A stretch of 64,000 bases of DNA from Glycera tridactyla (Eukaryota). The stretch covers positions 19,654,001-19,718,000 of the forward strand of contig OZ286460.1 in NCBI GenBank assembly GCA_965644265.1. The letters are read 5' to 3'. Below, in pieces: positions 17,325-63,209 of this stretch (positions are counted from its first letter, which is position 1; each line of letters begins with the position of its first letter). The notes under the pieces were generated by a model, which worked only from the letters and a program-made list of their open reading frames with translations, ran no database searches and had not been told where the DNA came from. The position numbers were made by a program, and so were the translations under genes.

Positions 17325-18401
17325 AACAAGGCCACAGAGGGGCAAGATACCCCGCACACGGGAGCACAGTGGGTAACCCATATCGCACACGGGAGGACGG
17401 TGGGTAACCCATACCGGAAAAGGTCATTGAGATGTTTGGTTGGCTACGTAATAAATCACTGGATCACTGTGTAGAATAACAGTAGCACCTGAAACCTTCA
17501 CCTCGACCAATGACTCAGGGTCACATGCATTGTAAGGGAGATGTTGTTACATTGTTACATCACTTGATCATCCCAGATCAGTTTGATCTTTATCCAACAA
17601 TGCTAGCCTGAGTTATTGTGTGAGACGTGGAAATTTAAAAATAGCTCCTATGGCCTTGACCTTTGACCCTAGGTCACACGCACCGAATGGGAGATATCTC
17701 ACCATTGGGTCATAACATTGTGCAACTTTGGTGCATATCAATCAATGCAAGCTTGAGCTGGAGTGTAAAATGAGAAAAAGTTATGAATAGCTCCTGTGAC
17801 CTAGACCTTTGACCTAGGGTCACATGCATTGAAAGGGAGGTGGCCCACCATTGGGTCATTACTAGGTGTAAGTTTGGTGCATATCCACCAAATCTAGCTC
17901 AGGTTAGAGTGTGAAATGAGAAAATCTATAAATAGCTCCTGTGACCTTGATCTTTGACCTAGGGTCACATGAATCGAAAGGGAGGTGGCCTACCATTAGC
18001 TCATTACTTTCTGTAAGGTTGGTGCATATCCATCGAAGCTAGCTCGGTTTAGAGTGTAAAATGAGAAAATCCATAAATAGCTCCTGTGACCTTGACCTTT
18101 GACCCAGGGTCACATGCATCGAAAGGGAGGTGGCCCACCATTGCGTCATCACTTCGTGTAAGTTTGGTGTATATCCATTGAGGCTAGCTCGAGTGTAAAA
18201 TAGGAAAATCTATAAATAGCTCCTGTGACCTTGACCTCTGACCTTTGGGTACAAAAATCAAATTCTCGTATACGATTTTTACATAGATCACAGTTATGAA
18301 GTTTTATAGAAATCGGACCAGCCAATCCAAAGTTATTGCATGAAATGTGAACGGAGGTGAAACTATAATACCCCGCTTTTTCAAGAGCGGGGTATAAAAA
18401 A
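17325..18401 (+). mobile_element. Helentron-associated non-autonomous element (HINE-like) with central ~145-bp tandem array
   Basis: 5' AACAAG...ATACCCCGC (17347-17355); 3' hairpin ATACCCCGCT-N8-AGCGGGGTAT (18368-18395) then an A-run; array units start at 17641, 17787, 17932, 18077, 18216 and contain TGACCTTGACCTTTGACC. Confidence 0.8.
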
Positions 18402-46374: not shown

Positions 46375-46456
46375 CTGAAATAATGATTCTGATGATGATG
46401 AAAATAGGAGACAATGATATATTGATGAATATTATCAGCCAACCAGTCTGTTCCAA

Positions 46457-46660
46457 TGTGGAGAAATTTAGTCAATAAACTGGACAATATCACTCACTTA
46501 TTGTGACGTTGCGGCTAGAACCTCTAGCCTTTGACGGACTGTTTACTCTTCGAGTTGTCAAGTGATAGACGACGGGAGTCTGTCGAAGGCTAGAGGTTCT
46601 AGCCGCAACGTCACAACAAGTGAGTGATATTTTCCAGTTTATCGACTAAATTTCTCCACA
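46457..46660. repeat. Fold-back palindromic element (84-bp arms, 36-nt loop)
   Basis: 46457-46540 is the reverse complement of 46577-46660 with only a few mismatches. Confidence 0.92.
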
Positions 46661-46742
46661 CAGGAGATATTCAGGCAACATATACTTAATTATTGCATAC
46701 ACACACATAAGCACGCACACAAGCATGCACACACACCTGCAA

Positions 46743-47597: not shown

Positions 47598-47613
47598 TGG
47601 TGGAGAATCAGGG
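47598..47613 (+). promoter_or_regulatory. Primer-binding site, tRNA-Ala type
   Basis: TGGTGGAGAATCAGGG; TGGTGGAGAAT is complementary to the ...ATTCTCCA-CCA 3' end of eukaryotic tRNA-Ala; located ~540 nt upstream of the gag ATG. Confidence 0.75.
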
Positions 47614-47760
47614 TTTGACGTGCTGACTGTGCTGTATTTTTTGTTATCTTTCTTTGTATTCTTACCATTTTTGCTGGTTATTGCTGGATTCGCTCGTGCG
47701 AGGCGTGGTCCCGTCGTCGGTATGGGTACTGGCGTGCGGACTATTGGGCTGTTGCCGGAG

Positions 47761-47766
47761 GTAAGT
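47761..47766 (+). promoter_or_regulatory. Major splice donor in the retroelement leader
   Basis: GAG|GTAAGT consensus between PBS and gag. Confidence 0.65.
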
Positions 47767-47864
47767 TTCCTGTACCCGCTCATTTGCTAGGGGGTTGGGC
47801 TGTGTTGTGTGCCCGTGTGATTGATTATGGTGTATTTAGGTCGAGCGGTGGTGGAAACTACGGG

Positions 47865-48002
47865 ATGCTCCCTTGTAGTCCATGGATATATTTATTTTTA
47901 ACCTTACTGGCAATTGTAGCCGTCATGATATATATCATGCTGATATCACCTGTTGGTATAATGCCTATGGGCCTGGCAGTTAGTGCTGTTGGAGGACAGT
48001 GA
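47865..48002 (+). CDS. Small upstream hydrophobic ORF (45 aa, one predicted TM helix)
   Basis: MLPCSPWIYLFLTLLAIVAVMIYIMLISPVGIMPMGLAVSAVGGQ; function unknown, may be chance. Confidence 0.3.
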   Translation: MLPCSPWIYLFLTLLAIVAVMIYIMLISPVGIMPMGLAVSAVGGQ

Positions 48003-48136
48003 GGTATTTGTCAAAGGTGTGGGTGTTCTACATGTATTATATGATAGATTTGAGAGGTACGCTATGATGTGGGGTGGAATGTTTGGTGGATTAAGGTCTA
48101 ATATTAGCCGATTATTTACTTATTGGGGTGGTGAGC

Positions 48137-51100
48137 ATGTCGCTAAATGGAATACACGGACGTCGGCGGTCTAGACGCCTGCGTGGCTTAGAACCTTATA
48201 ATATTGACGAGTTTGATTTTGATTTATCTTCACATCACTCTGACCTTAGTCTGAATTTTGAGAATAATTGGGTGGATGTGTCACGGCCCAGCCCTACTGA
48301 TGGAGTGATTTCATTGCCAGATGAATGGTTTAGGGATGTGATACCTATCGGTGAAACTAGGGCGGAGAATAATATTGGAATACCATCCAGACCAGCATCC
48401 GTTGGTGATGTGGCAGTAGTGGATGTTGATTCATGGCCATTGGTGTCTACTGAAGGGTCTATAGTGGTCCGGACACCAGACACGTTAGACACATTGTCTG
48501 AACATTCTGATGACAACGTACTTGTACCTAGACTTGCAGATGGGGATACACTTTGGAATGCTGATGGGACACCTCGAGCTACATCGTCTCCTACATCAAT
48601 AGTGTCAGATGATGTTATCACTGGACCTTTGTTGTATCCAACACGAACAGTACATGGGGAAAGAAATCAGATGCAGAATGATGGGGTGTCACCTAATATG
48701 AATGCCTGGGACTATTCTGTGGGTAGCCCTCATCTTGTAACTCCTCCATTACCTGTTTCTGATTCTGATGCAATGAACCGGGACAGGGGGACACCTGTCT
48801 TGAGTGGCACGGCTTACCGTCCTGTGAGGGTGTCTGATATAAGGGCTACGACTGGTCGTGGCTTGTCTGATACATTGCCTGTTCAAATGTACCCTGAAAG
48901 TGGCTCTCCAGTTGAGTGTACATCTTCTGGTGGTGGGATATCCACGGCTGTTGGTTACATTCAAGGTATGGATAATAGGGCTGGTGGAAACATGGGGACT
49001 GGTGGTAATGTGGGCCCCTATGCTCCAGTGATTCAACCAGGTAGGTTAAATTTAGATGAAGACACGCCGATCAGAGAACCAAAGAACGCATTCGGAGTTA
49101 ATAAATCCACCAGACTTGCTGGGTCTGAGAGAGTGATAAGACCTAAACCAATATTTTTACGGGATCAAACGGTAAGTACCTCAAAACCAGCGGCTGCCTG
49201 GTTGAATACAAACACATCGGTTGTGTCGTCAGGTATGACTGCTATTTGCTCTGTAGCTGAGTCAATTCCTATTTTCCAGAGAGGGAGAGTGAGGGAGCAG
49301 GCAAGTAGATTTGAGGAGCAGGGACGAAATAGATACCACAGTCCAATATCAGCATATGGACAGGAAAGGGTGAGTGGCTCATCAACAGGATTGGTTAATC
49401 AAGACGGTCCTGTTTTTAGCTCAGAAACACTGAGAACACCAGGATCGTTTATATCATCATCTAGAAGGATACGGGTGAGTGAGTCTGGTCTTGATGAAAA
49501 TGTGCTAAACCAACTTCATAGACCAGAATTGTCTGGAATGGGTAATTACCTCGTTGATGCAGACCCTCTGGTGAGTGATGATGTGCATGAAATGTTTAGG
49601 GCATTACCCCGGGAACTATCTCACCCAGCGGCGGTCACACCCCTAGCTAAACCTGCGAAAAGTAAGGTAAGGCAACCTGTCTTTTGCCAAGGCACGAGTG
49701 AAAGAGTAACAACTTTACCGAATAATGCTGGTGAATGCCATAATAAAAAGCGAAAGATACCAGATCAACCAGGTACGGATGATGAGGTGCTGAGACCTGT
49801 GTTCAGGATGCCCCATTTTATAAGTAAAAATCAGGCTAGATGGACAAAAGGAGAGGCCTATTTTACTGGTGAATTCAATGTTGAAGGTAGGCCAGTGTAC
49901 GAATATATGTGGACACCTATAGGTACAAGAGATCCAACTGATCCTGACATGCAGGAGTGGATATATCAACAGTGTAAGGCGGCTGGAAAAATGGCACAAA
50001 AACCCAAACAATCAACGCAAAAACCTGGGGTGAGTTTTGCATCTGATGGCCACATTGGTGGGTGGAGGACAGACAACCAACCACCATCAACCAGCGGCTG
50101 GATTCCACGTAGGCCAGGTGGGTTGAGTAATAGGACTCCTATGAAAACAGGGATACAAAACCCTCCAACACCTGCTAGAGCAGGGGTGGATAAAAATTGG
50201 ATTGATAATCCAGATTACTATGGCAGGGATGTTATTTATAAAGTCACTGATGATGAGCTGTCGGATCCAGACAATGATAGTGAAGAGCCTGTGAGTGACA
50301 GTGATACTGGTGAGTATATAGCCCGACCTCGTAGAAATGAGAGGGGATCACTTAAAGACCGTATGTGTGCCATGATTGGTGACCTGGGTAGATCAGATGA
50401 TGAGGGGGACCGCCAAATTGATAGGTTGGGAAGGAATTCAAATGATAATGACCGTGCCCGGGATGTAAATGATAATTTGCTTCAAAATGTGGGTCATGAC
50501 CAAACTAGACAGGCACACCGACGTGCTAATGTACGGAATGTTCGGAGTCATGAACGAACAGCCGGTGGACAAAGTTTGGGAGGAGACAGACAGAGGTCAA
50601 TTGTAGTGGAAGGGAGTTCATCCATAATAAAATTAGAAAAATTCAACCCGACAAAAATGAACCCATTAGACTGGTTTTCACTTTTCGAAACATATGTGTC
50701 ATACAAAAACCTGTCAAATGAGGATGCTCTGCGAGTTTTTAGATTCAGTGTTGCGGGTGATGTTGCATCATGGTATTCCCTGCTGCCACCTGTGAGGTCG
50801 CTCAGGCAACTGAAAAATGCTTTCGTCAAGGAGTGGGGTGTAGACCCTGAAAAACGCTATGCTTATTTTAACCGATTATGGAAGATGAAGCAGAAGGGGC
50901 GTGACAGCAAGAAATTCATTAGATCAATAGTGAAAAAGGCACGACTGATGTATGGAGTGTCACCTGAGCGTCAATTGAATGAATCTCAACAGGATGAGGT
51001 ATGCAAAATTGTATTGAATGCTCTGGACAAAAGTGTGCGGCAATTTGTGTTAACCCAACGTGCAGAATCCCTAGATGAAATAATAGAAGCGGCCTCTCTA

Positions 51101-51667
51101 GCACAATCACTAGATAGTGGTTCTGAGAAATCCAGTGGGTCTGAAGATGAGTCTTCCTCTGATACTGATGGGGAGGATCGGAAGAAGAAACATAAGAAAA
51201 AGAAAGATAAAAAGAAGGATGATGATAGGGGAAATACATCCAGGGCCATTATGGTCTTGTTGGATGAGATGAAATCTATGAAGACATCATTACCAGATAC
51301 AGTAGCAGAAGCAGTGGGAAAGCAGGCTGCTGAAATTAAAAAGTCAACTGGGACCAGGCCTAAAAAAAATATGAATGATGGCGGAGGGAGTGAGAATCCT
51401 ATACCTCAAAATGGGGGATATAGAAGCAGGATGGGTCAGAGAAATAGCAACGAGAGGGCTAGGTCTGTATGTTACACTTGCCAAAAACCAGGCCATTTTG
51501 CCATTAATTGTCCTGAGAGAGGGAAAGGTGGAGGCAGAAGCAATATGGCTGTTTGTCAGCTATGTGCCCGGACGGGGCATGTAGCACCACAATGTCCCAG
51601 ACTGAACAGGCCAGAGAAACCTGTAGACAGACATTCACATGAACAGAGACAGGGGGAGGACCAATAG
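48137..51667 (+). CDS. gag: Gag polyprotein, 1176 aa from first ATG, with ~830-aa N-terminal extension
   Basis: Capsid-like block from ~50624 (KLEKFN...DWFSLFE...GDVASWY); two CCHC knuckles CYTCQKPGHFAINC and CQLCARTGHVAPQC at 51470-51595. Confidence 0.93.
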   Translation: MSLNGIHGRRRSRRLRGLEPYNIDEFDFDLSSHHSDLSLNFENNWVDVSRPSPTDGVISLPDEWFRDVIPIGETRAENNIGIPSRPASVGDVAVVDVDSWPLVSTEGSIVVRTPDTLDTLSEHSDDNVLVPRLADGDTLWNADGTPRATSSPTSIVSDDVITGPLLYPTRTVHGERNQMQNDGVSPNMNAWDYSVGSPHLVTPPLPVSDSDAMNRDRGTPVLSGTAYRPVRVSDIRATTGRGLSDTLPVQMYPESGSPVECTSSGGGISTAVGYIQGMDNRAGGNMGTGGNVGPYAPVIQPGRLNLDEDTPIREPKNAFGVNKSTRLAGSERVIRPKPIFLRDQTVSTSKPAAAWLNTNTSVVSSGMTAICSVAESIPIFQRGRVREQASRFEEQGRNRYHSPISAYGQERVSGSSTGLVNQDGPVFSSETLRTPGSFISSSRRIRVSESGLDENVLNQLHRPELSGMGNYLVDADPLVSDDVHEMFRALPRELSHPAAVTPLAKPAKSKVRQPVFCQGTSERVTTLPNNAGECHNKKRKIPDQPGTDDEVLRPVFRMPHFISKNQARWTKGEAYFTGEFNVEGRPVYEYMWTPIGTRDPTDPDMQEWIYQQCKAAGKMAQKPKQSTQKPGVSFASDGHIGGWRTDNQPPSTSGWIPRRPGGLSNRTPMKTGIQNPPTPARAGVDKNWIDNPDYYGRDVIYKVTDDELSDPDNDSEEPVSDSDTGEYIARPRRNERGSLKDRMCAMIGDLGRSDDEGDRQIDRLGRNSNDNDRARDVNDNLLQNVGHDQTRQAHRRANVRNVRSHERTAGGQSLGGDRQRSIVVEGSSSIIKLEKFNPTKMNPLDWFSLFETYVSYKNLSNEDALRVFRFSVAGDVASWYSLLPPVRSLRQLKNAFVKEWGVDPEKRYAYFNRLWKMKQKGRDSKKFIRSIVKKARLMYGVSPERQLNESQQDEVCKIVLNALDKSVRQFVLTQRAESLDEIIEAASLAQSLDSGSEKSSGSEDESSSDTDGEDRKKKHKKKKDKKKDDDRGNTSRAIMVLLDEMKSMKTSLPDTVAEAVGKQAAEIKKSTGTRPKKNMNDGGGSENPIPQNGGYRSRMGQRNSNERARSVCYTCQKPGHFAINCPERGKGGGRSNMAVCQLCARTGHVAPQCPRLNRPEKPVDRHSHEQRQGEDQ

Positions 51668-54600
51668 GACAGGTCATGGCCACCTGCAGAGAATGTAATA
51701 ATGGCATTGGACAATTATAGCAATCATCATACCAATGTAGGCGGAAATTTAGAAATTATGACATGGGATAGAGAAACAATAAATGCACCTATACAACAGA
51801 ATCTGATACAAATATTGATTAAAAATCGCCTCATAACGGCCATGTTGGACACAGGCGCCAGTGTGTCGGCTGTGGAGAGTGATTTAGTGATGAAGCTACT
51901 CCCTCATACCTATTCTACAAGAAAGAAATATACACAGGGAAAAGTGAAAGATGCCCAGGGAAATTATGTCAAAGTAGACGGGATAGTACAGTTGGATTTT
52001 GAGATCCAAAGTGAGAACTTTAGAATTGATGCTCTTATTGTTGAAAAGTTGCCAGTGACACTAATCTTAGGACTACCATTTTTTGTTGAACATGATGTAA
52101 GATTATCATGGGACTCTGTGAAAATTAGAGGAAATAATGCTGAGATTATTGCAACTCTTGTGCGTACAGTGGACAGCAGAGATAGTTTTAATTTAAAGGT
52201 TTGTTGTGACACGGTATGCGGGTCGTACCAAGCGACAATCCTTGATGTATATGGATCATCCAGGGGATGTGCCAAAGGCAGCCCTGTGTATGAAGACATA
52301 TGGTGTGTGAAGACACATAGGGATTTGGTAGATGGTGAAAATCTGATTGTATCCCCGGCAATTGCATATGTGGGCCCCAGGGGAACAGTTACAATTGAGA
52401 TAATTAACCCTACTTCCAGTGATGTAAGACTGTCCGCTGACCAGATAGTAGCAGTAGGAAAATTGTATGCTAAACCAAGTTCTATGGATAATATGTTGCT
52501 AAAGAACCAAGAACCTGTGAGGGGGATGAACTTAGAATATCCACAGATGACCAGTAATGAAACTCAGATGACCAGTAATGAAACTCAGATGACTAGTAAT
52601 GAAACTCAGATGACCAGTAATGAAACTCAGATGACCAGTAATGAAACTCAGATGACCAGTAATGATACACAGATGACCAGTAATGACTTGCAGATGGCCA
52701 GTAATGAAGCACAGATGACCAGTAATGAAACTCAGATGACCAGTAATGAAACTCAGATGACCAGTAATGAAACTCAGATGACCAGTAATGATACACAGAT
52801 GACCAGTAATGACTTGCAGATGGCCAGTAATGAAGCACAGATGACCAGTAATGAAACTCAGATGACCAGTAATGATACACAGATGACCAGTAATGACTTG
52901 CAGATGGCCAGTAATGAAGCACAGATGACCAGTAATGAGACGTGCACAACCAGTAATGAAACCCAGGTTACCAGTGAGGATGCTCAGATTTCTAGTAATG
53001 ATGCTCAAACAATTGATGCTAGAACTCAGATTATTGATGATGGAGTACAAACTAGTGGTGATATGATTAACCTGATGCAGGTATTACGATCATTTGAACT
53101 GAAAGTACCGCCGGTAATGATTATGATTGAAACCAATGATTTAAGGGTTGTGGCTACACAAACTGAACCAGATATATTGAATCAGACGCGTGTGATAACC
53201 TACAAACCGATTGACTGGCAACAGTATCTAGATGATGACTTGCCTGAGGATGTTTATGAAAAACTTATCAAGGTGTTGGAGTTCCATAGGCCATGTTTTG
53301 CTATGGACTTGTCAGAGTTAGCAAGAGTGAATGATTATGAACATGTTATTGAACTGAAACATGATGCCAAGGTAGTGCACCAAAAACCGTATCGTGTGAC
53401 ACCTGAGAATAGTATAGAAATCGAGAGACAGATAAAAATTTTGCGTGAACATGGGCTAGTAGATTTTAGTGATTCCTACTGGTCGAGCCCTGTGTTATTG
53501 GTAGACAAGAAACCTGATTTCCCTGGAGCACCAATCACCAAAAGACTTTGTATTGATCTGAGGAAATTAAACAGGGAAATTTTACTGAATAGCTTCCCAG
53601 TACTGACGCTCGATGAAATTATTCATCGACTGGCGATAGCTAAACATAAATGGTTTATTAATCTTGATTTGAAATCTGCATATTTCTCTATCCCTTTGTC
53701 ACCAGAAAGTCAACATCTGGTGTCATTTGTTACGCAGAGTGGCTGTTATAAAATGACTTCCTGTCCGTTCGGGTTAAAAAGCTCGCCGAGCAGTTTCTCT
53801 CAGGTGATGATGAGGTGCTTAGCACCATTAGATCAAACCAAGATATTGAACTATATGGATGATATCGTGTTGACAGGAGACACGCCTGAGGATCTCCTGG
53901 AAACATTGAATGCAGTGTGTTGGAGACTCAGGACTGTTGGGTTATCACTCACGCCATCCAAGTGTCATTTCATGAAGAGACAGATAAAATTCTTAGGCCA
54001 AATATTTGATCAGACAGGATGCCGATCAGACTATGCGAAGATAAAAACTGTGGCTATCTTTCCCACCCCGACTGATGTACGAGGAGTGCGTAAGTTGATG
54101 GGATTGTTGAATTGGCAGAGACGGTATATAAACCGATTTAGTCATTATGCATCAGTCCTTTATGAACTCCTTACAAAGGATGCCGAGTTTGAATGGACTG
54201 ATAAGCATCAGAAGGCAATGGACTGGCTGAAAACTCAAGTGCTGGAAAATGTAGTGCTATACTACCCGAAAGTAGACCACCCCTTTGTGATATACACGGA
54301 TGCATCGGCAAGAGCTGTGGGCTCATTAACATTACAGAAGGATGGTGACAGTCAATTGAAACCTGTGGCATTTCTCAGCCACTGCCTATCTAAAGCACAA
54401 CAAAAATATCACTCAAACGAACTGGAAGTTTTAGCAGTTGTTATTGCACTGACACATTTGAAATATTTCATCACAACGGAAACTCCTGTTGAAATCTTCA
54501 CGGATAATGTTACTAATGTATTTTTCCAATCATTGTCTCTGAAAACAGGTCGGCTATTTCGCTATCATCTGTTCTTATCGAGATATAATTTGAAAATCAG

Positions 54601-57499
54601 GTTCACTAATGGGTGGAGAAATCAATGCGCCGACACTTTGAGTAGATTTCCGAATTTGGAAAATTTGGAAGAACTGCAGGATGAAGGACTAGACAACATT
54701 ACACATACAGATATACCGACATCAATCAATTACAAACACACAATACAAACAATAAACTGCATAATGTCTATGGGTGAGCTGACTTCCGATAGCGCTGAGG
54801 TATTTGAATCAGAGTTTGAGGCAGATGAGAGTTCTCTTTGGCAGGTACCTGATAAATACCTTTTGCCAGTCATTTCAGAGTCTGTTTCTGAGAAGAAAGT
54901 AGTACCCCAATGGTCAGATAGATTGGTTACACAAGAAGCAAGTAGTATTGCGAATGAGCGATTATATGACAGGGAATCGGAATTTTGCATGTTTGATAGA
55001 CCAGCTGGGGCACGAGAGGCGGTGACACGGCCTGTTCCGGCTGATAAAGCGAGTCATCCTGGTGGGCAGTCGGATGAAGAACCACCACCGGGAGGGCTGC
55101 CCGAGCATCACGACGAGGGTGTAGATGACACGCAGGCTATAGACGCTCCCCTCGTACCGAGGCCTCGACTGTTATCAGATGAACGGCAGTCAACTGTAAA
55201 CAATCAGAAAGACATGGGAGGTATTAGGGATGCTGATTATGATATCGTGGGTGACGGTATATTTGAGACTGGGGATGAACTGATAAAAAGACAGACAAGA
55301 TTTTGTGAAGGAAGCCCTGAAAACCTATTGCGATTTTTCCGTGATGAACAGACAGATATACGGTTTGAACAAATTGACGACCGCTTGGGGCAAGACTTTG
55401 AAGACCTGCAATTATCATTTTTACATGATACCGCCAAATTGGCTGAAGAACAACATTTAGACAGTGATTTTAAACATATTATTGAGTACAAACAGGCTGG
55501 TGAATTGCCTACCATTAAGAAACAGGCAATGAAGGTGTTGGCTGAAGACCACAAATACTTTTTGGATGAAAATGGAATACTTTACCGCATATATACACAT
55601 TCAAAAGGGAAATCTGCTAAAACATATAGACAATTGTGTCTACCTGCTCAATATCGAGCCAGGATGGCCCATTTATTTCATGATGGACCAATGGCTGGTC
55701 ATAGAGGTTTTGACAAAATGTACACATTGGTGATGCAGTATTTCTACTACCCCAGGTGTTATGAAGAATTGCTGAAGTATTGTCAAACCTGCGAAATTTG
55801 TGCTAAATCAAAGGTCACTCAAGGGCAAGTGAGAGTACCGCTGCAAATTAGAGAAGCTCCTGTATATATATTTGACACAGTACACATCGATTTTTTGAAG
55901 TTATATAAGACACGTGACGGATATGTATATGTTTTATCTATGATTGATCGGTTCACACATTGGGCGGAATTAGTACCCACTAAAGATCAATTAGCAAAGA
56001 CAACAGCTTTAGCTGTCGTGCGAGAATGGATATTTCGCCATGGCTTAATGAGATGCATTATTTGTGACCGATCTATGTCATTCATGGGGCAAGTATTCAG
56101 AAATATTTTGAAATTACTCAAGGTAAGAATGATTTTCATTTCACATATGAACCCAAAAAGTAATAGCCGGGTGGAAACACTTAATCGGTTGGTAATATCT
56201 AAACTGAGAGCGTCCTTACAACAAGTTTCACATACAGATTGGACAGAATTACTACCTGCAGTGGCATTCACATTGAACACGACTCCACTGCCTTGTGGCT
56301 TTTCACCATATCAATTGGTGTGTGCTAAATCACCAAATTTGGGGAGTCAAATGCTTCTAACTGATCCCTCCATGATACCTGAGGATCCAAGAGAAGTCAT
56401 CCGGGAATTGTGGGGAGATTTAGCAATTATTCGTATGGAGGCTCAGAAAAATATGCTTGAACTCGATAAAGCCATGAAAGCTAGGTATGATCGGAAATAT
56501 AGAACTAAACCTGATGAATTTCGTGAGGGAGATCTAGTGTGGCTGGTGGCACCACACACCATCCTGGTGGGTCAGGGCAAGCTGAAATCAAAGAAACTGG
56601 GCCCATTTGAAATTGCATGTAGGGTGGCCCCCACATTGGTTCAATTATGCCTGGTTGATTCGGCAGTGTGGTTGCCATCATTGACCAGCACCAGCAGGTT
56701 AGTGCCATACGTACATCCTGTTAATTCATCATTACGTATGCAATTACAAACTGAAGTAAAAATTAATAAGAAACATGAGCGCTTTGCAAATTTGGGACGA
56801 GTTGAGTGGGAACAGGAACTAAATGAGAATGATGATGTGACAGGTAACTTACCCATAAATGATGATGAAAACGCTTCACAGGATGTGGCTGACCAATGTA
56901 ACTCCCCACCGTTATTGGATAGTGGCGAAGGTGTGGATGATGTGCCTCAAAGAATGGTGTCCTCGACATCTGGTGATGGAGGGGTGTCCAATAGTCGAAG
57001 AAATGTACAAACTGTATGTGAATCCACAGTGATATCCGGTGTTGGAATGTCTCATGGTGGGCACACAAAAATAACAGAAATGTCAGATAGTGGAATAATT
57101 GACCCACCAGCTCAACCTACGGCCAGTCATATAATTCACTCTGATGACGTCCAAAATGATGCGGATGCGGATGATGGAAATGAGAGAGCTGTTGCTTCTC
57201 AAAAATGTAGATCAAAACGTAAATATTTACAAATGTACAATCGTGCAAAAATATATGGTAACCGATTGGCTGCTACTTCCCGGGGCAAGCCTACTAGCAA
57301 TGTCAAACAAAAAGTGGCTGGAGTATCCAAAAGTGATTTGGCCAAGGATATAGTAAAACTGCTTGCATCAAGGAAAAGTAAAGATGGTACGAGGAGTTTT
57401 GAGTGTTTGTACGCGACTCATCCTAGGTCATGGCTGAAGGAGTCCTTGATCCCGACAGTTTTTATCGACGATTATGATTATCGGCACCGGGTGAAATGA
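51668..57499 (+). CDS. pol: Pol polyprotein (protease, RT, RNase H, integrase), same frame as gag after a single TAG
   Basis: LDTGAS (D at 51848); RT YMDD (53852); RNase H YTDAS/ELE/FTDN (54299 onward); IN HHCC (55679-55801), D-D-E core (first D 55889), GPF (56600). Confidence 0.97.
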   Translation, partial: DRSWPPAENVIMALDNYSNHHTNVGGNLEIMTWDRETINAPIQQNLIQILIKNRLITAMLDTGASVSAVESDLVMKLLPHTYSTRKKYTQGKVKDAQGNYVKVDGIVQLDFEIQSENFRIDALIVEKLPVTLILGLPFFVEHDVRLSWDSVKIRGNNAEIIATLVRTVDSRDSFNLKVCCDTVCGSYQATILDVYGSSRGCAKGSPVYEDIWCVKTHRDLVDGENLIVSPAIAYVGPRGTVTIEIINPTSSDVRLSADQIVAVGKLYAKPSSMDNMLLKNQEPVRGMNLEYPQMTSNETQMTSNETQMTSNETQMTSNETQMTSNETQMTSNDTQMTSNDLQMASNEAQMTSNETQMTSNETQMTSNETQMTSNDTQMTSNDLQMASNEAQMTSNETQMTSNDTQMTSNDLQMASNEAQMTSNETCTTSNETQVTSEDAQISSNDAQTIDARTQIIDDGVQTSGDMINLMQVLRSFELKVPPVMIMIETNDLRVVATQTEPDILNQTRVITYKPIDWQQYLDDDLPEDVYEKLIKVLEFHRPCFAMDLSELARVNDYEHVIELKHDAKVVHQKPYRVTPENSIEIERQIKILREHGLVDFSDSYWSSPVLLVDKKPDFPGAPITKRLCIDLRKLNREILLNSFPVLTLDEIIHRLAIAKHKWFINLDLKSAYFSIPLSPESQHLVSFVTQSGCYKMTSCPFGLKSSPSSFSQVMMRCLAPLDQTKILNYMDDIVLTGDTPEDLLETLNAVCWRLRTVGLSLTPSKCHFMKRQIKFLGQIFDQTGCRSDYAKIKTVAIFPTPTDVRGVRKLMGLLNWQRRYINRFSHYASVLYELLTKDAEFEWTDKHQKAMDWLKTQVLENVVLYYPKVDHPFVIYTDASARAVGSLTLQKDGDSQLKPVAFLSHCLSKAQQKYHSNELEVLAVVIALTHLKYFITTETPVEIFTDNVTNVFFQSLSLKTGRLFRYHLFLSRYNLKIRFTNGWRNQCADTLSRFPNLENLEELQDEGLDNITHTDIPTSINYKHTIQTINCIMSMGELTSDSAEVFESEFEADESSLWQVPDKYLLPVISESVSEKKVVPQWSDRLVTQEASSIANERLYDRESEFCMFDRPAGAREAVTRPVPADKASHPGGQSDEEPPPGGLPEHHDEGVDDTQAIDAPLVPRPRLLSDERQSTVNNQKDMGGIRDADYDIVGDGIFETGDELIKRQTRFCEGSPENLLRFFRDEQTDIRFEQIDDRLGQDFEDLQLSFLHDTAKLAEEQHLDSDFKHIIEYKQAGELPTIKKQAMKVLAEDHKYFLDENGILYRIYTHSKGKSAKTYRQLCLPAQYRARMAHLFHDGPMAGHRGFDKMYTLVMQYFYYPRCYEELLKYCQTCEICAKSKVTQGQVRVPLQIREAPVYIFDTVHIDFLKLYKTRDGYVYVLSMIDRFTHWAELVPTKDQLAKTTALAVVREWIFRHGLMRCIICDRSMSFMGQVFRNILKLLKVRMIFISHMNPKSNSRVETLNRLVISKLRASLQQVSHTDWTELLPAVAFTLNTTPLPCGFSPYQLVCAKSPNLGSQMLLTDPSMIPEDPREVIRELWGDLAIIRMEAQKNMLELDKAMKARYDRKYRTKPDEFREGDLVWLVAPHTILVGQGKLKSKKLGPFEIACRVAPTLVQLCLVDSAVWLPSLTSTSRLVPYVHPVNSSLRMQLQTEVKINKKHERFANLGRVEWEQELNENDDVTGNLPINDDENASQDVADQCNSPPLLDSGEGVDDVPQRMVSSTSGDGGVSNSRRNVQTVCESTVISGVGMSHGGHTKITEMSDSGIIDPPAQPTASHIIHSDDVQNDADADDGNERAVASQKCRSKRKYLQMYNRAKIYGNRLAATSRGKPTSNVKQKVAGVSKSDLAKDIVKLLASRKSKDGTRSFECLYATHPRSWLKESLIPTVFIDDYDYRHRVK
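52544..53005 (+). repeat. In-frame 21-nt tandem repeat in pol (QMTSNET x19 plus ~3 degenerate units)
   Basis: Unit CAGATGACCAGTAATGAAACT, read directly; variant block NDT/NDL/ASNEA recurs three times. Confidence 0.97.
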
Positions 57500-57715: not shown

Positions 57716-59122
57716 TTATAGATTGTTTTGGCCATTCTCGATGTTGATGGCGCTGGCCAGGGATGTGAGCGCTCGGCGGTTTCGGTTGTGTGGACGGCTA
57801 CGGCGGGCTAGCTGTGTGCGTCGGATGATGGGTCGAGATTCCTGCGCCATGGGTCGGATTGTCATTACAAGCCTCCGTCTTGGTGGGTTGGCTGGAGGCT
57901 GATGTGGATAATCTGAGCCACCGTGATTGGTCTCTGACACGGATTCCGTGACTTCATTCGCTGCAACGGCCTGGTCTTGCGTAATGTAGTCAACGGCCAT
58001 CCGTGTGGATATTGTCATGTCATTTGTACTCAGATCCATGGGTGACCCTTGGGGGGATGATGGAGCTGAATGGGGGTGACTGGAGGGGCTGCCCTCTGGT
58101 GTCCTCTCAGATTGGGGGGTCTCCGATTCCCCGAAGAATCTGTAGATGGGGTACATTCCTGTGGGTGACTGGGATACCCTGGGATTTGTACCTGATGTGG
58201 ATGTCTCCAGAGTCGGGTCCTCATATTGGGTGGCAACACTGGTGTATGTTGTCTCCACTTGGGTACCTTGGTCAACGGTACCTGGTGAGGTGGTTGGGCC
58301 ACTTGTGGGAATGCGTGGGTTGGTTGACCTGTTATGGTGATAGGCTGCAGTGCGTACCTGGGAAGGGTGTAGGTGTGACTGGTTGTTCATCATGAGGGTG
58401 GATGGAGCACTGGGCATTGCCGCAGTGTTAGTTAGCAAGGTCGAGGATGATCCAGGGTGTGTAGCCCATGTTGGGGGCATGGGTACAACTTGGGTTGGAT
58501 ACCCACTGTTGTATGGATATCCTGATCTTGCACGCCCGATGTGTGGTGGTATCACACATTCAAGTCGACCAGTTGTCCAGTACTCCCGTACCGCATTGAT
58601 CAATGGGTGACACGGTTGAATGTCGTACATACCATGAAAATGGATGCGGGAATGCAGTTCGATATATTCAGTCTGGTCATGAATGGTGAGGGCGAGTACC
58701 GAGAACGACCTTGGTGTCGAGAAGACATGATGCAGCAGGGCTCTGGCCCCTTCGTCCTGCATTGGATGTCGGCTGCGCTGGCGTCCATACACTTGTAGAA
58801 AATGATCGGCACCCACTTCCCGGATAGTAGGTGCGCTCACATACTTATATTGCAGTAATTTCTTCATTGCAAGGCAGAACCGAGTGTTCCGCTCGACTTG
58901 CATCTCGGTAGGTTGGTAGAAGGTTACGATCTGTGACTCCGTCATGATGTTTGATGTCAGTTTGTCTTGGATGATGAAATGAGTATCAACAGGAACAACT
59001 GTGATGAGTGTGTGGTAGGGTGTAGATCCAAGTGAGGAATGATCTGCAGAGGTGAGTATCTCGAAATGTGGCATCAGGGGGAGGAGCTGATTCTGATTGG
59101 AAATCAGTGAGTGGTGAGTCAT
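57716..59122 (-). CDS. Antisense accessory ORF of the retroelement, 468 aa, unknown function
   Basis: 1407-nt uninterrupted ATG-initiated frame filling the pol-env gap, with no long sense ORF opposite it; ordered-looking N-terminal ~190 aa, S/T/P-rich disordered C-terminus, Arg-rich tail. Confidence 0.85.
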   Translation of the reverse strand: MTHHSLISNQNQLLPLMPHFEILTSADHSSLGSTPYHTLITVVPVDTHFIIQDKLTSNIMTESQIVTFYQPTEMQVERNTRFCLAMKKLLQYKYVSAPTIREVGADHFLQVYGRQRSRHPMQDEGARALLHHVFSTPRSFSVLALTIHDQTEYIELHSRIHFHGMYDIQPCHPLINAVREYWTTGRLECVIPPHIGRARSGYPYNSGYPTQVVPMPPTWATHPGSSSTLLTNTAAMPSAPSTLMMNNQSHLHPSQVRTAAYHHNRSTNPRIPTSGPTTSPGTVDQGTQVETTYTSVATQYEDPTLETSTSGTNPRVSQSPTGMYPIYRFFGESETPQSERTPEGSPSSHPHSAPSSPQGSPMDLSTNDMTISTRMAVDYITQDQAVAANEVTESVSETNHGGSDYPHQPPANPPRRRLVMTIRPMAQESRPIIRRTQLARRSRPHNRNRRALTSLASAINIENGQNNL

Positions 59123-59189
59123 GATTGGGGAGTTGGACGCTGTGAAATGAAAAGTGCATGGGGTAAGTTTATGGTGTTTTTTTTTTATA
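59123..59189 (-). promoter_or_regulatory. Candidate minus-strand splice acceptor (AG at 59141-59140) and TATAAAA (59189-59183) upstream of the antisense ORF
   Basis: Minus strand reads gTATAAAAAAAAAAcacc...cttac...cacttttcatttcacAG|cgtccaactccccaatcATG. Confidence 0.55.
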
Positions 59190-59625
59190 CAGTGATAAGA
59201 CGTAATAGTGGGAGCCCAAATGGATTGGACAGGTGGGCAGGTAGGTTGTTGGGGTCGTAGATTACGACATCACTGTGGCACAGGTGGTCGAATGATTAAA
59301 GGGGGGTCAGTTAGTTGGTGATGATGGTCTGACTTGATGTAAAGTAGACCATTGTATGTATGTCTACTCGATGCATAGTGGATATTGGTGAAACGGAGCT
59401 TCAGCTAGGAGCTGTGGAGGTGTAAGATTGAAGCCGAGGGTAATTAATCAACATGATGGAAAGTGAATGGTAGTTGCTCATGGCGGAGAGCTATAGAAAA
59501 TGGGGTGAGGCTTAATCAGACCGTTTAGAGAATTAAATTGGGCAGATGGAAGAAGTATAAATGAGAGACGATGGACGACGGCACGGGAGGCGACTGTATG
59601 ATTAATCACGCAGGATACGCGTGGC

Positions 59626-59644
59626 CTCTGTTTTATGTTTTCAG
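59626..59644 (+). promoter_or_regulatory. Splice acceptor for subgenomic env mRNA
   Basis: ctctgttttatgttttcAG|G, 4 nt before an in-frame ATG (59649) and 49 nt before the signal-peptide Met (59694). Confidence 0.65.
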
Positions 59645-59648
59645 GAAT

Positions 59649-62600
59649 ATGTGTGATGACCGCCTGAGTGAGCACGACATGGCCGGGAAGGAGATGTACC
59701 CAACGTTAATTGTGTTAATAGTCACGTATGTAAATGTAATTAGTGTAAATAGTCAGATGAGTGAAGGTATAGGTGGTGACAATGTCCTGAATTATGGTGT
59801 TTGGTTTGCACCAAAAGGCAGTTATCAAATATCAAATGAGAATTATCATTTGATATTGGCGGTAGATATACCTGGATTGAGAGGTGGTGATGAAAATGTT
59901 AAAGCCAGGTGTAATATGGGAGAGAAAGGGAAGTCTTGTCAAGGGAAGAAATTGCAAGCTGTAATAACACAGTTGAACAGAGGCAAGAGACTTATCGATG
60001 ATAGTACCTGCCAATTGTTTGAAACAATAGTAGATGAGATAGATACCTACGAGTTAGAGATGGACCAACGTTTGGCCAGAGTGATGCTGACTACAGACTA
60101 TGCATGGTGGGTGGATGATGTGATGCGGAATAAATATGAGAAAGTGCTGAAATCTAAAACAATTAAAAAGAAGTCAAGACAACGAGAAAGGGCAGATGAT
60201 GCCTACTGGTTGATGAGTATAACTAATGAAAATGAGACTGGTGAAGTGCAGACAGAAAAAAATTTGCAGCTAGGACATGGGACCAAGAATAGGCCACGGA
60301 AGGGGGTTGGCTATATCGAGACGCCTGTCATCAAGCTGAAGAAGGGCCATGTGAAGACGCCAGTGAAACACTTACTGGTGGCTGGGAGGCGATGGCAGCA
60401 ACAAATAGCTGACAATTGTGTTTATACAAATATATCTGAGTGGGGTGAGGATGTGGGTACTTCTCCAAGTGATTCTTCTGTTGCAGACAGTTTGCAGAAA
60501 CTACATGGGTTACTGATGGCTGTCCAGAAAAAGGTTACAAATTCTGTACTAAAGGATATTGGAATATTCAATGAATCAGAATGGATGAAGTGGTCTAGTT
60601 CCCAAGAAATATCTCGAGACATGCAGAATATGGTTGTTGATTGGGTGTGGCGAATTCAAAATGAAATACCTCCTAAAAAGTTGCAATTGGAATTGATTCC
60701 ATTATTGCGAAAACTGGGTGTGTACAGTCATCAATTAGCCAGAGAAAGGAAAAATACAGCCCGAGTTTCCGAAAGATATCTGAATAAAACTGTCATAACC
60801 CGACTAATTGAATCCTTGGACCACTTGGCAAATTTACGACTTGTGAATCAGAATGTAGTGGATATGCAGAGATTTCGAAAGCGGATTCGACGACTATGGG
60901 TTCGCATGAATATGGCACTGAACCAACAAGACCAAATGCCGTTGCATTGGTCCACTATTAAAAGTGATATGTGGGAATCGCTATTTGGTTCAGCTACGTT
61001 TGCTCAAGTTGACGAAATAATTCATGTGATTAACGGTGTCACCAACAATAGTAGTAATCGACGGGAAATTCGGAAATCGTATTTCGCGAACACCACTGCG
61101 TATATTACAGTGTCTTCGAGAATGGCCATCGAGTTTAAACGTGTGGTGAGACGTCTGAAAATGGCCATCGGCCTGTTGAGTGATCAGTCGGAGATGGAGG
61201 GGGAATATGACATAAATGCCATGTCATATATAATAAACAAAGCCACCAATATAGCCATAGGACTATCATTAGTCCGTTCAAAAATCGAGCACTTTGCAGA
61301 TGGTCTCCGAGAATTGCTCAAGGGAAAATTGACACCTCAAATAATCTCGGAAGATGATTTGCAAGAAGCATTGATACAGCTGGAAATAGAGCTGAGGGCA
61401 AGAGAGTCAAGGTTTCATGTTCTGACATTTGACTCTGCCCACTATTATTCAATTAAGAACATTGCTCATGTAAGAAATCAAAACCAGTTAATAATTGTAT
61501 TACCAATAGAAGTAACTAGACAGTCTCAAAATTTTCATTTATACCAGTTATCAGTATATGACATTCCAGTCAATAGCATTGAGAATTTGACTTCACGATT
61601 GGTTTCGGATATTGCAATAGTAGGGTTAAGCGAGTCAAAAACAAGGTTCATACAACTCACACATCAACAATGGATGTTATATGACAAAGAAAATAAATGG
61701 ATAAGCAACAGTGATATTCAAGTGTATAATCATGAGAATCTTACATGTGAAATGGCTCTATTCTGGAACAAGATGGTAGAGGTTAAGAAGTTATGTGAAT
61801 TCAGATTAGAACAAAAGCCGCTACAAATGAAATTGCACATCCTACCTAGGGGTGAATTGGTAGTCATGAATGCCGAAGAACTGATAGTGGCTTGTCAAGA
61901 CCGCCCCTATGTGAGGAAATCAGGGTGTGAAGTCTGCATACACCCACTAAAATGTGGATGTGAATATGTGGGTAGATTAAAGGATGATAGATTGGTGATC
62001 AACTCGAGAATGACAAAATGTGTGACTGAAGTAGAGAAGAGGCCACCCAAAACCATACTTCATATGTCTATCATACAGTATCTAGTACCTGAGGAATGGT
62101 TGCTGGGTGATGGTAGTGAAATTCATAGACAGAAAGACAATATCCCTGATATACCACTCAGGGTTAATCAGGGGCATTATGAGCAGTCAATATGTGGGCC
62201 AATTGAGTTTTCAATGAACCTTGAGAAGGCATTGGATAGGGTAAAAGCAGGTGAAAAATTATCACCAATTCAGCAGATTGATTGGGCATCCTGGAAAATA
62301 ATTCATGTTTCAGACTTTTTCACATTATCCACATGTGTCAGTATGGGTGAATGGGTATTGAGCACAGTGATAGTACTGGCTCATGTAAGAACAGCTCGAA
62401 GAGTGAATGAATTGGCACAGAGGGTTAATGGCATCATCATAATGAATCAACTTCGAGCAGCTAGGGCTATGAATGTTTTGGTTGGAATGAATACAAACAT
62501 GACAGAAACAAATAGATCAAATGCAGGGGGTGAGATAATTAGCCAGCGTGAGGGTATATTACTTCTGTTGCTGGTAGTCATTATACAACTTGCAATTGTG

Positions 62601-63209
62601 TTGGTGTGTCTTTTGAAATACTGTTTGAAAGTACAACCACATTCAGAAATAGCATGGGTCGTTTTGACATTACGAGGTAGGGATAAGTGTACAGTTAAGG
62701 TTAAGAAGCTCTATTGTGCCCCTCATGCGATTCGAATGCTAGCAGAAGGACCGCCCTCAGATATTAGATTAATTGGTCCCATACTTAAATCGAAATTATA
62801 TGTCTACTGGGGAAACAGGGAATTGATAGATAACGGAAATGGGGTCATTTATTACCTACCAAATGTGATTGATATTTCTATGTCAAGAGGACTACGAATT
62901 GCAGCCCTACTCAGAGAAACCTATCAAGTCACAGTTGACATTGTGTACAGGGATCGAGAGGGAAAATGGACTGCAGGGAATCGGTTGAGGTGTGATGAAC
63001 CTACAGAGGTTCACCCATATGTCAGAGAAAACAGTAATAGTAGTAGGCAGAATAGAATTCGAGAAGAACTACCACCTCCTTATGAACTTCATCAGCTTCG
63101 AAATCTCCGAAGCACTACCCGGGAAGGCCGGATTATGTTAAGCCCATTACCTTCGAGTTCATCAGATAGCGACCAATCAACAGAACGAGGACATACCAGA
63201 ACCAATTAA
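59649..63209 (+). CDS. env: Envelope-like glycoprotein (F-type/class I fusion-like), ~1170-1190 aa
   Basis: Signal-like MYPTLIVLIVTYVNVISVNS; LNYGVWF-x(11)-HLILAVDIP N-terminal motif; polybasic RFRKRIRR; SLFGSAT; GKLTPQIIS; Cys cluster; two C-terminal hydrophobic segments. The open frame extends up to ATG 59571. Confidence 0.85.
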   Translation: MCDDRLSEHDMAGKEMYPTLIVLIVTYVNVISVNSQMSEGIGGDNVLNYGVWFAPKGSYQISNENYHLILAVDIPGLRGGDENVKARCNMGEKGKSCQGKKLQAVITQLNRGKRLIDDSTCQLFETIVDEIDTYELEMDQRLARVMLTTDYAWWVDDVMRNKYEKVLKSKTIKKKSRQRERADDAYWLMSITNENETGEVQTEKNLQLGHGTKNRPRKGVGYIETPVIKLKKGHVKTPVKHLLVAGRRWQQQIADNCVYTNISEWGEDVGTSPSDSSVADSLQKLHGLLMAVQKKVTNSVLKDIGIFNESEWMKWSSSQEISRDMQNMVVDWVWRIQNEIPPKKLQLELIPLLRKLGVYSHQLARERKNTARVSERYLNKTVITRLIESLDHLANLRLVNQNVVDMQRFRKRIRRLWVRMNMALNQQDQMPLHWSTIKSDMWESLFGSATFAQVDEIIHVINGVTNNSSNRREIRKSYFANTTAYITVSSRMAIEFKRVVRRLKMAIGLLSDQSEMEGEYDINAMSYIINKATNIAIGLSLVRSKIEHFADGLRELLKGKLTPQIISEDDLQEALIQLEIELRARESRFHVLTFDSAHYYSIKNIAHVRNQNQLIIVLPIEVTRQSQNFHLYQLSVYDIPVNSIENLTSRLVSDIAIVGLSESKTRFIQLTHQQWMLYDKENKWISNSDIQVYNHENLTCEMALFWNKMVEVKKLCEFRLEQKPLQMKLHILPRGELVVMNAEELIVACQDRPYVRKSGCEVCIHPLKCGCEYVGRLKDDRLVINSRMTKCVTEVEKRPPKTILHMSIIQYLVPEEWLLGDGSEIHRQKDNIPDIPLRVNQGHYEQSICGPIEFSMNLEKALDRVKAGEKLSPIQQIDWASWKIIHVSDFFTLSTCVSMGEWVLSTVIVLAHVRTARRVNELAQRVNGIIIMNQLRAARAMNVLVGMNTNMTETNRSNAGGEIISQREGILLLLLVVIIQLAIVLVCLLKYCLKVQPHSEIAWVVLTLRGRDKCTVKVKKLYCAPHAIRMLAEGPPSDIRLIGPILKSKLYVYWGNRELIDNGNGVIYYLPNVIDISMSRGLRIAALLRETYQVTVDIVYRDREGKWTAGNRLRCDEPTEVHPYVRENSNSSRQNRIREELPPPYELHQLRNLRSTTREGRIMLSPLPSSSSDSDQSTERGHTRTN

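What the first reader, a model, noticed from the sequence alone, without database searches (positions are those of the whole stretch)
51662..51703. Gag and Pol in the same frame, separated by one amber codon: probable stop-codon readthrough
Seen: ...GAC CAA TAG GAC AGG TCA TGG CCA CCT GCA GAG AAT GTA ATA ATG...; no other stop intervenes, so suppression gives a 3120-aa Gag-Pol. A hairpin CAGGT-catggcc-ACCTG (51670-51686) starts 2 nt after the TAG, and the 5' context is CAA. Known: gammaretroviruses (MLV) use UAG readthrough with a 3' RNA structure, whereas Ty3/Gypsy elements typically frameshift or fuse gag-pol. Inference: a gammaretrovirus-like recoding signal in an invertebrate Metaviridae element.
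Basis: partly seen in the sequence, partly recalled or inferred. Interest (0 to 1): 0.75.

Follow-up and report, generated by a model that had tools for sequence, protein, structure and literature searches.

The report
Enveloped retrotransposon with in-frame gag stop
An intact-looking, envelope-carrying jumping gene of an invertebrate has a single stop codon between its coat gene and its enzyme genes in the same reading frame, so the enzymes are probably made by occasional readthrough of that stop, a known trick that is unproven here and lacks the RNA signal used by mouse leukaemia virus.

Summary
The layout is real: gag (48137-51664), one TAG (51665-67) and pol (51668-57499) share a frame, 3120 codons in all. 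The element is a Ty3/Gypsy with an F-type-like env and a chromodomain-like Pol end, like the "ancient errantiviruses" of Chary and Hayashi. The stop lies in the linker between the zinc knuckles and the protease, 2.4% of the frame. None of the four closest Pol clusters is fused to Gag. It is therefore probably the inherited end of gag, not damage. The proposed signal fails. The 5-bp hairpin is weak (-4.9 kcal/mol) and is lost in folds of 53 nt or more. The best pseudoknot is ordinary: 63 of 300 control sites do as well, while four gammaretrovirus-type junctions score far better. No sister copy or relative's DNA could be obtained, so conservation of the TAG is untested. Best reading: leaky UAG readthrough by an unknown signal (about 0.6). 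Rivals: Pol translated separately from ATG 51701 (0.2), or a copy-specific lesion (0.13). In-frame gag stops are already known in Ty3/Gypsy (fission-yeast Tj1); I found none described for an enveloped animal element.

The parts
47598..47608 (+). Primer-binding-site-like motif starting TGG (tRNA-Ala-like by recall; not tested)
   Evidence: Seen; the exact 11-mer has 0 hits in the errantivirus master table
47758..47766 (+). Consensus 5' splice donor in the leader (candidate donor for env RNA)
   Evidence: Pattern scan
48137..51667 (+). gag ORF, 1176 aa: long low-complexity N-terminus, helical capsid-like region (inferred), two zinc knuckles
   Evidence: capsid fold not confirmed
51470..51595 (+). 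Two CX2CX4HX4C zinc knuckles (nucleocapsid)
   Evidence: residues 1112-1125, 1140-1153; Pfam zf-CCHC E=3e-8
51665..51667 (+). TAG ending gag, in frame with pol; the only stop in 3120 codons
51670..51686 (+). 5-bp inverted repeat proposed as readthrough hairpin; judged chance
51701..51703 (+). First in-frame ATG of the pol frame (A at -3, G at +4), 49 codons before the protease Asp; basis of the rival model
51668..57499 (+). pol ORF, 1943 codons: protease (Asp at residue 61), RT, RNase H, integrase, SH3-like and chromodomain-like C-terminus
52439..53089 (+). 21-nt tandem repeat inside pol between protease and RT, frame preserved
   Evidence: absent from 4 of 4 aligned relatives
57716..59269 (-). 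517-codon antisense ORF filling the pol-env gap; function unknown
59626..59644 (+). Pyrimidine-rich splice acceptor just ahead of the env ATG at 59649 (13 of 16 pyrimidines)
59565..63209 (+). env-like ORF, 1214 codons stop to stop, F-type-like
   Evidence: ESM Atlas 0.91 to Baculo_F clusters for residues 470-960; no Pfam hit

Best explanation
The TAG is the inherited gag terminator of a structurally intact, env-carrying Ty3/Gypsy retroelement. Most ribosomes on the genomic RNA stop there and release Gag. A small fraction decode the stop with a near-cognate tRNA and continue into pol, giving a scarce Gag-Pol that co-assembles with Gag, while Env comes from a spliced RNA. Shown: the layout, the domains and the position of the stop. 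Inferred: that the stop is inherited, that it is read through, and that env is spliced. The 5-bp hairpin is probably not the signal. If a stimulator exists, it is not an MLV-type local pseudoknot; it could be linear context, distant sequence or a trans-acting factor.
For: (1) One stop in 3120 codons, with env and the antisense ORF also unbroken, so the copy has few lesions. (2) The stop is 23 codons after the last knuckle and 61 before the protease Asp; this linker is 75 of 3120 codons (2.4%; 2.6% when weighted for stop-mutable codons). (3) 0 of the 4 closest Pol clusters (P0001, P0095/P0232, P0104/P0233, P0136; 34-47% identity over RT/RNase H) carries a CCHC knuckle or a Pfam Gag domain before the protease, so this lineage appears not to fuse gag and pol. 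(4) No -1 slippery heptamer lies where it could carry ribosomes from gag into pol. (5) Acceptor candidates before the protease have 7-8 of 16 pyrimidines against 13 of 16 at the env acceptor; only two weak donors (4 of 7) lie in the 400 nt before the stop, and both would cut the knuckles. (6) Precedent in Ty3/Gypsy: Tj1, Tcry1 and Tosmo1-3 (10.1101/2022.12.06.519325, passages).
Against: No sister copy or related junction DNA was seen, so conservation is untested. There is no readthrough-type structure: pseudoknot score -16.3 (63 of 300 controls as strong) against -29.8 in 4 of 4 gammaretrovirus-type junctions, and no long-range pairing above chance (61 of 200 and 105 of 200 controls; 18 of 120). 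The 3' context matches neither CARYYA nor CUAG/CGG (motifs recalled). An in-frame ATG in good context lies 33 nt after the stop. Pol-only relatives are also what frameshifting or separate translation would give, and only 5 of the 66 non-window rows of the tree were fused anyway. In Tca2, an MLV-like junction did not direct readthrough in yeast reporters (PMC2194720, passages).
Confidence: 0.6

Rival explanations
1. Pol is translated on its own from ATG 51701 (or 51758), from a spliced or internally initiated pol RNA as in foamy viruses (recalled), or by reinitiation. The shared frame is then a coincidence or a relic of an ancestral fusion.
For: ATG 51701 has A at -3 and G at +4 and lies upstream of the protease. 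A CAG at 51689 falls between an out-of-frame ATG (51676) and ATG 51701, and a consensus donor exists in the leader. All 4 closest relatives are Pol-only proteins. A Tca2 junction fragment gave de novo initiation at a downstream AUG in yeast (PMC2194720).
Against: The acceptor is poor (8 of 16 pyrimidines, 3 T) next to the env acceptor (13 of 16, 11 T). A separate ORF would share the frame only one time in three. Pol without Gag needs its own route into particles. The relatives' start codons are gene-caller choices and prove nothing.
Confidence: 0.2
2. The layout is particular to this copy: either a nonsense mutation in a single Gag-Pol ORF, or a one-base indel or assembly error that hides an ordinary frameshift junction.
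For: Only one copy was seen, and no reads could be laid on it. [quoted passage not shown] A run of five G lies just before the stop.
Against: A random nonsense change would hit this linker about 2.5% of the time, and 0 of 4 close clusters is fused. No usable slippery heptamer lies near the junction in any phase. The rest of the element has no broken frame.
Confidence: 0.13
3. One reading: readthrough driven by the CAGGT/ACCTG hairpin, or a pseudoknot built on it, acting like the MLV signal. This is a sub-case of the best explanation.
For: The hairpin dominates if only 23-33 nt are folded. UAG-G and the hexamer AGGTCA are shared with gammaretrovirus-type junctions L003-L006, matched by 80 of 15,063 positions.
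Against: -4.9 kcal/mol; pair probability 0.01 or less in longer folds; ordinary against controls. It starts 2 nt after the stop, where a terminating ribosome would cover it (established knowledge); MLV has an 8-nt spacer first (PMC2194720).
Confidence: 0.08

Closest known systems
Fission-yeast Ty3/Gypsy chromoviruses Tj1, Tcry1, Tosmo1-3 (10.1101/2022.12.06.519325; passages read)
   Same: Ty3/Gypsy; gag and pol in one frame split by one stop; AA just before the stop; chromodomain (here chromodomain-like) at the Pol end.
   Different: They use TGA-CT in a strictly conserved 8-bp context, have no CCHC and no env reported, and are fungal. Here the stop is TAG-GAC, with two knuckles and an env, in an animal-like genome, and conservation is unknown.
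Murine leukaemia virus / gammaretrovirus gag-UAG-pol readthrough (PMC2194720 passages; loci L003-L006 as controls, labelled by recall)
   Same: gag-UAG-pol in one frame, G after the stop, env downstream, a shared hexamer after the stop.
   Different: Not a retrovirus: Pol is closest to Ty3. No GC-rich pseudoknot after a spacer (score -16.3 against -29.8; 42% against 64-65% G+C).
'Ancient errantiviruses' with F-type env, especially the chromodomain-bearing clade of Cnidaria, Mollusca and Annelida (Chary and Hayashi, PMC13524379; sections 5 part 1, 7, 8, 14, 22 and rows of supplement 1 read)
   Same: gag-pol-env order, Ty3/Gypsy Pol, F-type-like env, chromodomain-like Pol end, large size.
   Different: The main text has 0 occurrences of readthrough, frameshift or suppression, so how these elements make Pol is not addressed there. 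The 2-kb pol-env gap with an antisense ORF is wider than their 1-kb prefilter.
Tca2 of Candida albicans (Ty1/Copia; PMC2194720, passages read)
   Same: In-frame stop between gag and pol, with a downstream in-frame AUG and a proposed RNA structure.
   Different: Copia, UGA, fungal. Local sequence did not direct readthrough in S. cerevisiae: a caution for the present case.

Membership tests
Ty3/Gypsy (Metaviridae) | Pol order protease-RT-RNase H-integrase | tested here: met
   Pfam positions 44-145, 617-779, 843-973, 1326-1496
Ty3/Gypsy (Metaviridae) | RT closest to Ty3/Gypsy rather than Retroviridae | tested here: met
   Ty3 261 bits against 109 for the best retroviral Gag-Pol/RT entry. The quick tree did not resolve the root: the retroviral outgroup attaches next to this lineage on a very long branch
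Ty3/Gypsy (Metaviridae) | Two LTRs and a primer-binding site | tested here: inconclusive
   PBS-like motif at 47598; no LTR pair inside the window, which ends 0.8 kb after env
Ty3/Gypsy (Metaviridae) | Gag with capsid and CCHC nucleocapsid | tested here: inconclusive
   Two knuckles met. Capsid: low-confidence model (pLDDT 39.9), Arc capsid domains only at E about 1
Errantivirus-like (env-carrying Ty3/Gypsy) | Third ORF encoding an F-type or gB-type fusogen | tested here: inconclusive
   Atlas 0.91 to Baculo_F clusters for a part of the protein (whole protein 0.75-0.77); no Pfam hit, no sequence homologue, fold unusable. F-type is likely, not proven
Chromodomain-bearing errantivirus clade (Chary and Hayashi) | Chromodomain after integrase | tested here: inconclusive
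   No Pfam hit for the window's C-terminus; relative P0136 hits Chromo at E=0.002, below cut-off; a profile of three relatives' C-termini matches window Pol 1895-1941 at E=2e-8
Chromodomain-bearing errantivirus clade (Chary and Hayashi) | Groups with their elements in an RT tree | not testable with these tools
   The master table gives coordinates only
Gammaretrovirus-type readthrough signal | UAG in frame between gag and pol, followed by G | tested here: met
Gammaretrovirus-type readthrough signal | Purine-rich 8-nt spacer followed by a compact pseudoknot | tested here: not met
   Best pseudoknot -16.3, matched by 63 of 300 controls; positive controls -29.8
Programmed stop-codon readthrough | Stop and context conserved among copies and relatives | not testable with these tools
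   No genome held, no runs listed, no close relative's DNA found
Programmed stop-codon readthrough | Fusion protein or in-frame footprints across the stop | not testable with these tools
   Needs ribosome profiling or proteomics

The most novel reading that the evidence does not exclude
A whole lineage of enveloped, chromodomain-bearing Ty3/Gypsy elements of marine invertebrates makes Pol by UAG readthrough without a local pseudoknot. It would have reached the gammaretroviral gag-UAG-pol-plus-spliced-env plan independently, with a readthrough signal of a type not yet described.
Probability: 0.25. Interest if true: 0.6.

Novelty: new variant of a known kind. Interest (0 to 1): 0.35.

Why it matters
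If readthrough is real and shared by the lineage, it extends programmed stop-codon readthrough to enveloped animal Ty3/Gypsy elements, whose Pol expression the main text of the largest survey does not address. It would show convergence on the gammaretroviral plan and point to a readthrough signal that is not a local pseudoknot. It is cheap to test: the 1512 elements tabulated by Chary and Hayashi can be scored for the gag-pol frame. As it stands it is one copy with a known layout, so the result is modest.

Tried and rejected
Sister copies: no whole genome is held. No sequencing run was listed for 50500-52400, including no RNA holder; this is not evidence either way. No notes existed for this genome or sequence.

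Relatives' DNA: the single metagenome scan, run with the window's RT alone, gave one distant Gypsy (L001, 30%, pol overlapping gag in another frame). An alignment query might have reached further. Six scans of viral contigs gave nothing or only distant elements and retroviruses (12 loci, 24-30%). Two scans of prokaryote genomes gave none.

Gag and Env homologues: the Gag search gave 1 unrelated zinc-finger protein (lengths 646-2058 only); the Env search gave none (lengths 293-933 only). Single-sequence folds of Env (pLDDT 31.7) and of the Gag-protease junction with X at the stop (pLDDT 39.9) were unusable.

RNA structure: the hairpin, pseudoknot, extended stem and a -29.6 kcal/mol duplex with 58151 were all rejected against controls.

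Frameshifting and splicing: -1 frameshifting was rejected. The heptamers found lie at 51362-64, closed by stops in both other frames, and at 51745, past the stop. A short intron removing the stop was rejected. Relatives' Pol N-terminal extensions do not match the window's gag end.

Host: 0 of 64 ORFs of 85 aa or more in 1-46000 hit Pfam, and no tRNA genes were found, so 'invertebrate' rests on the look of the repeats and on the element's kin, not on a test.

Tree and papers: the careful tree did not finish, so the quick tree is reported. Gao 2003 and Havecker 2004 are not held.
Full report
OBSERVATION. The quoted junction is in the sequence. From ATG 48137 one frame runs 3120 codons to the pol stop at 57497-99, with a single internal stop, TAG 51665-51667. 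The upstream ORF ends with two CCHC knuckles. The downstream ORF holds protease, RT, RNase H, integrase and an SH3-like domain. The inverted repeat at 51670-51686 exists, but it is worth -4.9 kcal/mol and its pairs fall to probability 0.01 or less in all 5 windows of 53 nt or more. None of the 5 windows folded is more stable than its shuffles (z -0.71 to +0.67).

THE ELEMENT. Pol is closest to Ty3 among solved structures (261 bits, against 109 for the best retroviral Gag-Pol/RT entry). A third ORF (59565-63209) has no Pfam hit, but its central part scores 0.91 to Baculo_F clusters in the Atlas (the whole protein scored 0.75-0.77). A pyrimidine-rich acceptor precedes its ATG, and a consensus donor lies in the leader. 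The Pol C-terminus matches those of three relatives (E=2e-8), one of which has a sub-threshold Chromo hit. A primer-site-like motif lies at 47598. No LTR pair is inside the window, so the copy cannot be dated. This anatomy fits the 'ancient errantiviruses' of Chary and Hayashi (PMC13524379; abstract, sections 5 part 1, 7, 8, 14 and 22, and rows of supplement 1 read), who describe a chromodomain-bearing clade in Cnidaria, Mollusca and Annelida. Membership of that clade is untested, and the host was not identified (0 of 64 ORFs hit Pfam).

IS THE STOP INHERITED? It could not be checked directly: no genome, no listed runs, no close relative's DNA. Two indirect lines favour inheritance. First, position: the stop lies in the 75-codon linker between the last knuckle and the protease fold, 2.4% of the frame, in an element with no other broken frame. 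Second, relatives: two protein searches (80 hits; best 150 of 114,513) gave four close clusters, P0001 (47%), P0095/P0232 (41%), P0104/P0233 (37%) and P0136 (34%). None has a knuckle or Gag domain before the protease. In a quick tree of 67 rows (the window, the 62 best-scoring hits covering at least 380 residues, and four locus proteins; other hits left out), the window pairs with P0001 (SH-aLRT 100). The 5 fused rows all lie elsewhere, beyond branches of 97 and 98. This argues against a single-ORF family. It does not separate readthrough from frameshifting or separate translation, and fused rows were rare throughout.

IS THERE A SIGNAL? The viral scan returned four loci with gag-TAG-pol in one frame (L003-L006), which I recognise as gammaretrovirus-type from recall. 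A simple pseudoknot enumerator scores them -29.8, beyond the 1% tail of controls (-25.6). It scores the window -16.3, equalled by 63 of 300 random sites; the best hairpin is equalled by 84 of 300. Pairing of the first 30 nt after the stop with the next 200 or 600 nt, or with the rest of the element, is also ordinary (61 of 200 and 105 of 200; 18 of 120). The window shares UAG-G and the hexamer AGGTCA with those junctions; 80 of 15,063 positions match as well. That is about 0.5%, but the comparison was chosen after the fact. The 5' CAA recalls the tobacco mosaic virus context, but the 3' CARYYA part is absent (motif recalled).

OTHER ROUTES TO POL. No slippery heptamer is placed to carry ribosomes from gag into pol. 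Donors within 400 nt before the stop are weak and would remove the knuckles. Separate translation remains open: ATG 51701 is in good context, and a CAG at 51689 lies between it and an out-of-frame ATG at 51676. That acceptor has 8 of 16 pyrimidines against 13 of 16 for env.

MECHANISM. Most likely (0.6) ribosomes usually stop at the TAG and occasionally read through, giving much Gag and little Gag-Pol, with Env from a spliced RNA. The layout is shown; inheritance, readthrough and splicing are inferred. Rivals are separate Pol translation (0.2) and a copy-specific lesion or assembly error (0.13).

WHAT IS KNOWN. In-frame gag stops occur in Ty3/Gypsy elements of fission yeasts, and the Tj1 stop is reported as essential for transposition (10.1101/2022.12.06.519325, passages; supplements not seen). 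I reached this paper through a search listing and an earlier scan note. They also occur in the Copia element Tca2, where local sequence did not give readthrough in yeast reporters (PMC2194720, passages; also PMC5580714, passages). A 2003 survey found pol in the -1 frame in 28 of 51 animal elements (as cited in PMC5009743, passage). I recall Skipper, RIRE2 and the silkworm element Kamikaze as further gag-stop-pol cases; the source papers were not held, so an animal precedent may exist in print. Ten full-text searches and term searches in PMC13524379, PMC12440569, PMC11673190, PMC5408684 and PMC9040795 showed no gag-stop-pol readthrough described for an env-carrying animal Ty3/Gypsy. Most listed papers were seen as listings only, and the library lacks most subscription journals. 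Earlier scan notes report the same layout in Copia, DIRS-like and Euglena elements (unchecked), so it recurs widely.

VERDICT. A real in-frame gag stop in an intact-looking enveloped Ty3/Gypsy element, probably inherited and probably read through, with no support for a gammaretrovirus-like RNA structure. It is a known strategy in a lineage where I found it undescribed, resting on one copy. Interest 0.35.

Noticed in passing
window 57716-59269 (-): A 517-codon antisense ORF fills the 2-kb gap between pol and env; the other five frames hold 16-26 stops. No Pfam hit. Possibly an accessory gene, or an effect of base composition.
   Followed up: partly
window 52439-53089 (+): A 21-nt tandem repeat adds a 7-residue unit many times inside Pol between protease and RT, keeping the frame; absent from 4 of 4 aligned relatives.
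   Followed up: partly
window 48137-50600 (+): Gag has a low-complexity N-terminal extension of about 820 aa with no Pfam hit.
   Followed up: no
window 47598-48137 (+): Thirteen ATGs lie between the primer-site-like motif and the gag ATG, with a hydrophobic 127-codon ORF at 47619-48002. Plain scanning to gag looks difficult, so internal entry, shunting or splicing may be needed.
   Followed up: no
window 59192 (+): A second strong acceptor-like site (12 of 16 pyrimidines) lies 450 nt upstream of the env acceptor.
   Followed up: no
window 46452-46665: An 89-nt inverted repeat, 92% complementary, with a 36-nt spacer, just upstream of the element; MITE-like.
   Followed up: no
window 17500-18262 and 13356-15126: A satellite of about 145-nt period and degenerate 33-nt repeats in the host DNA.
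   Followed up: no
L001 231-5440: A distant Gypsy with pol overlapping the end of gag in another frame, the usual frameshift layout.
   Followed up: no
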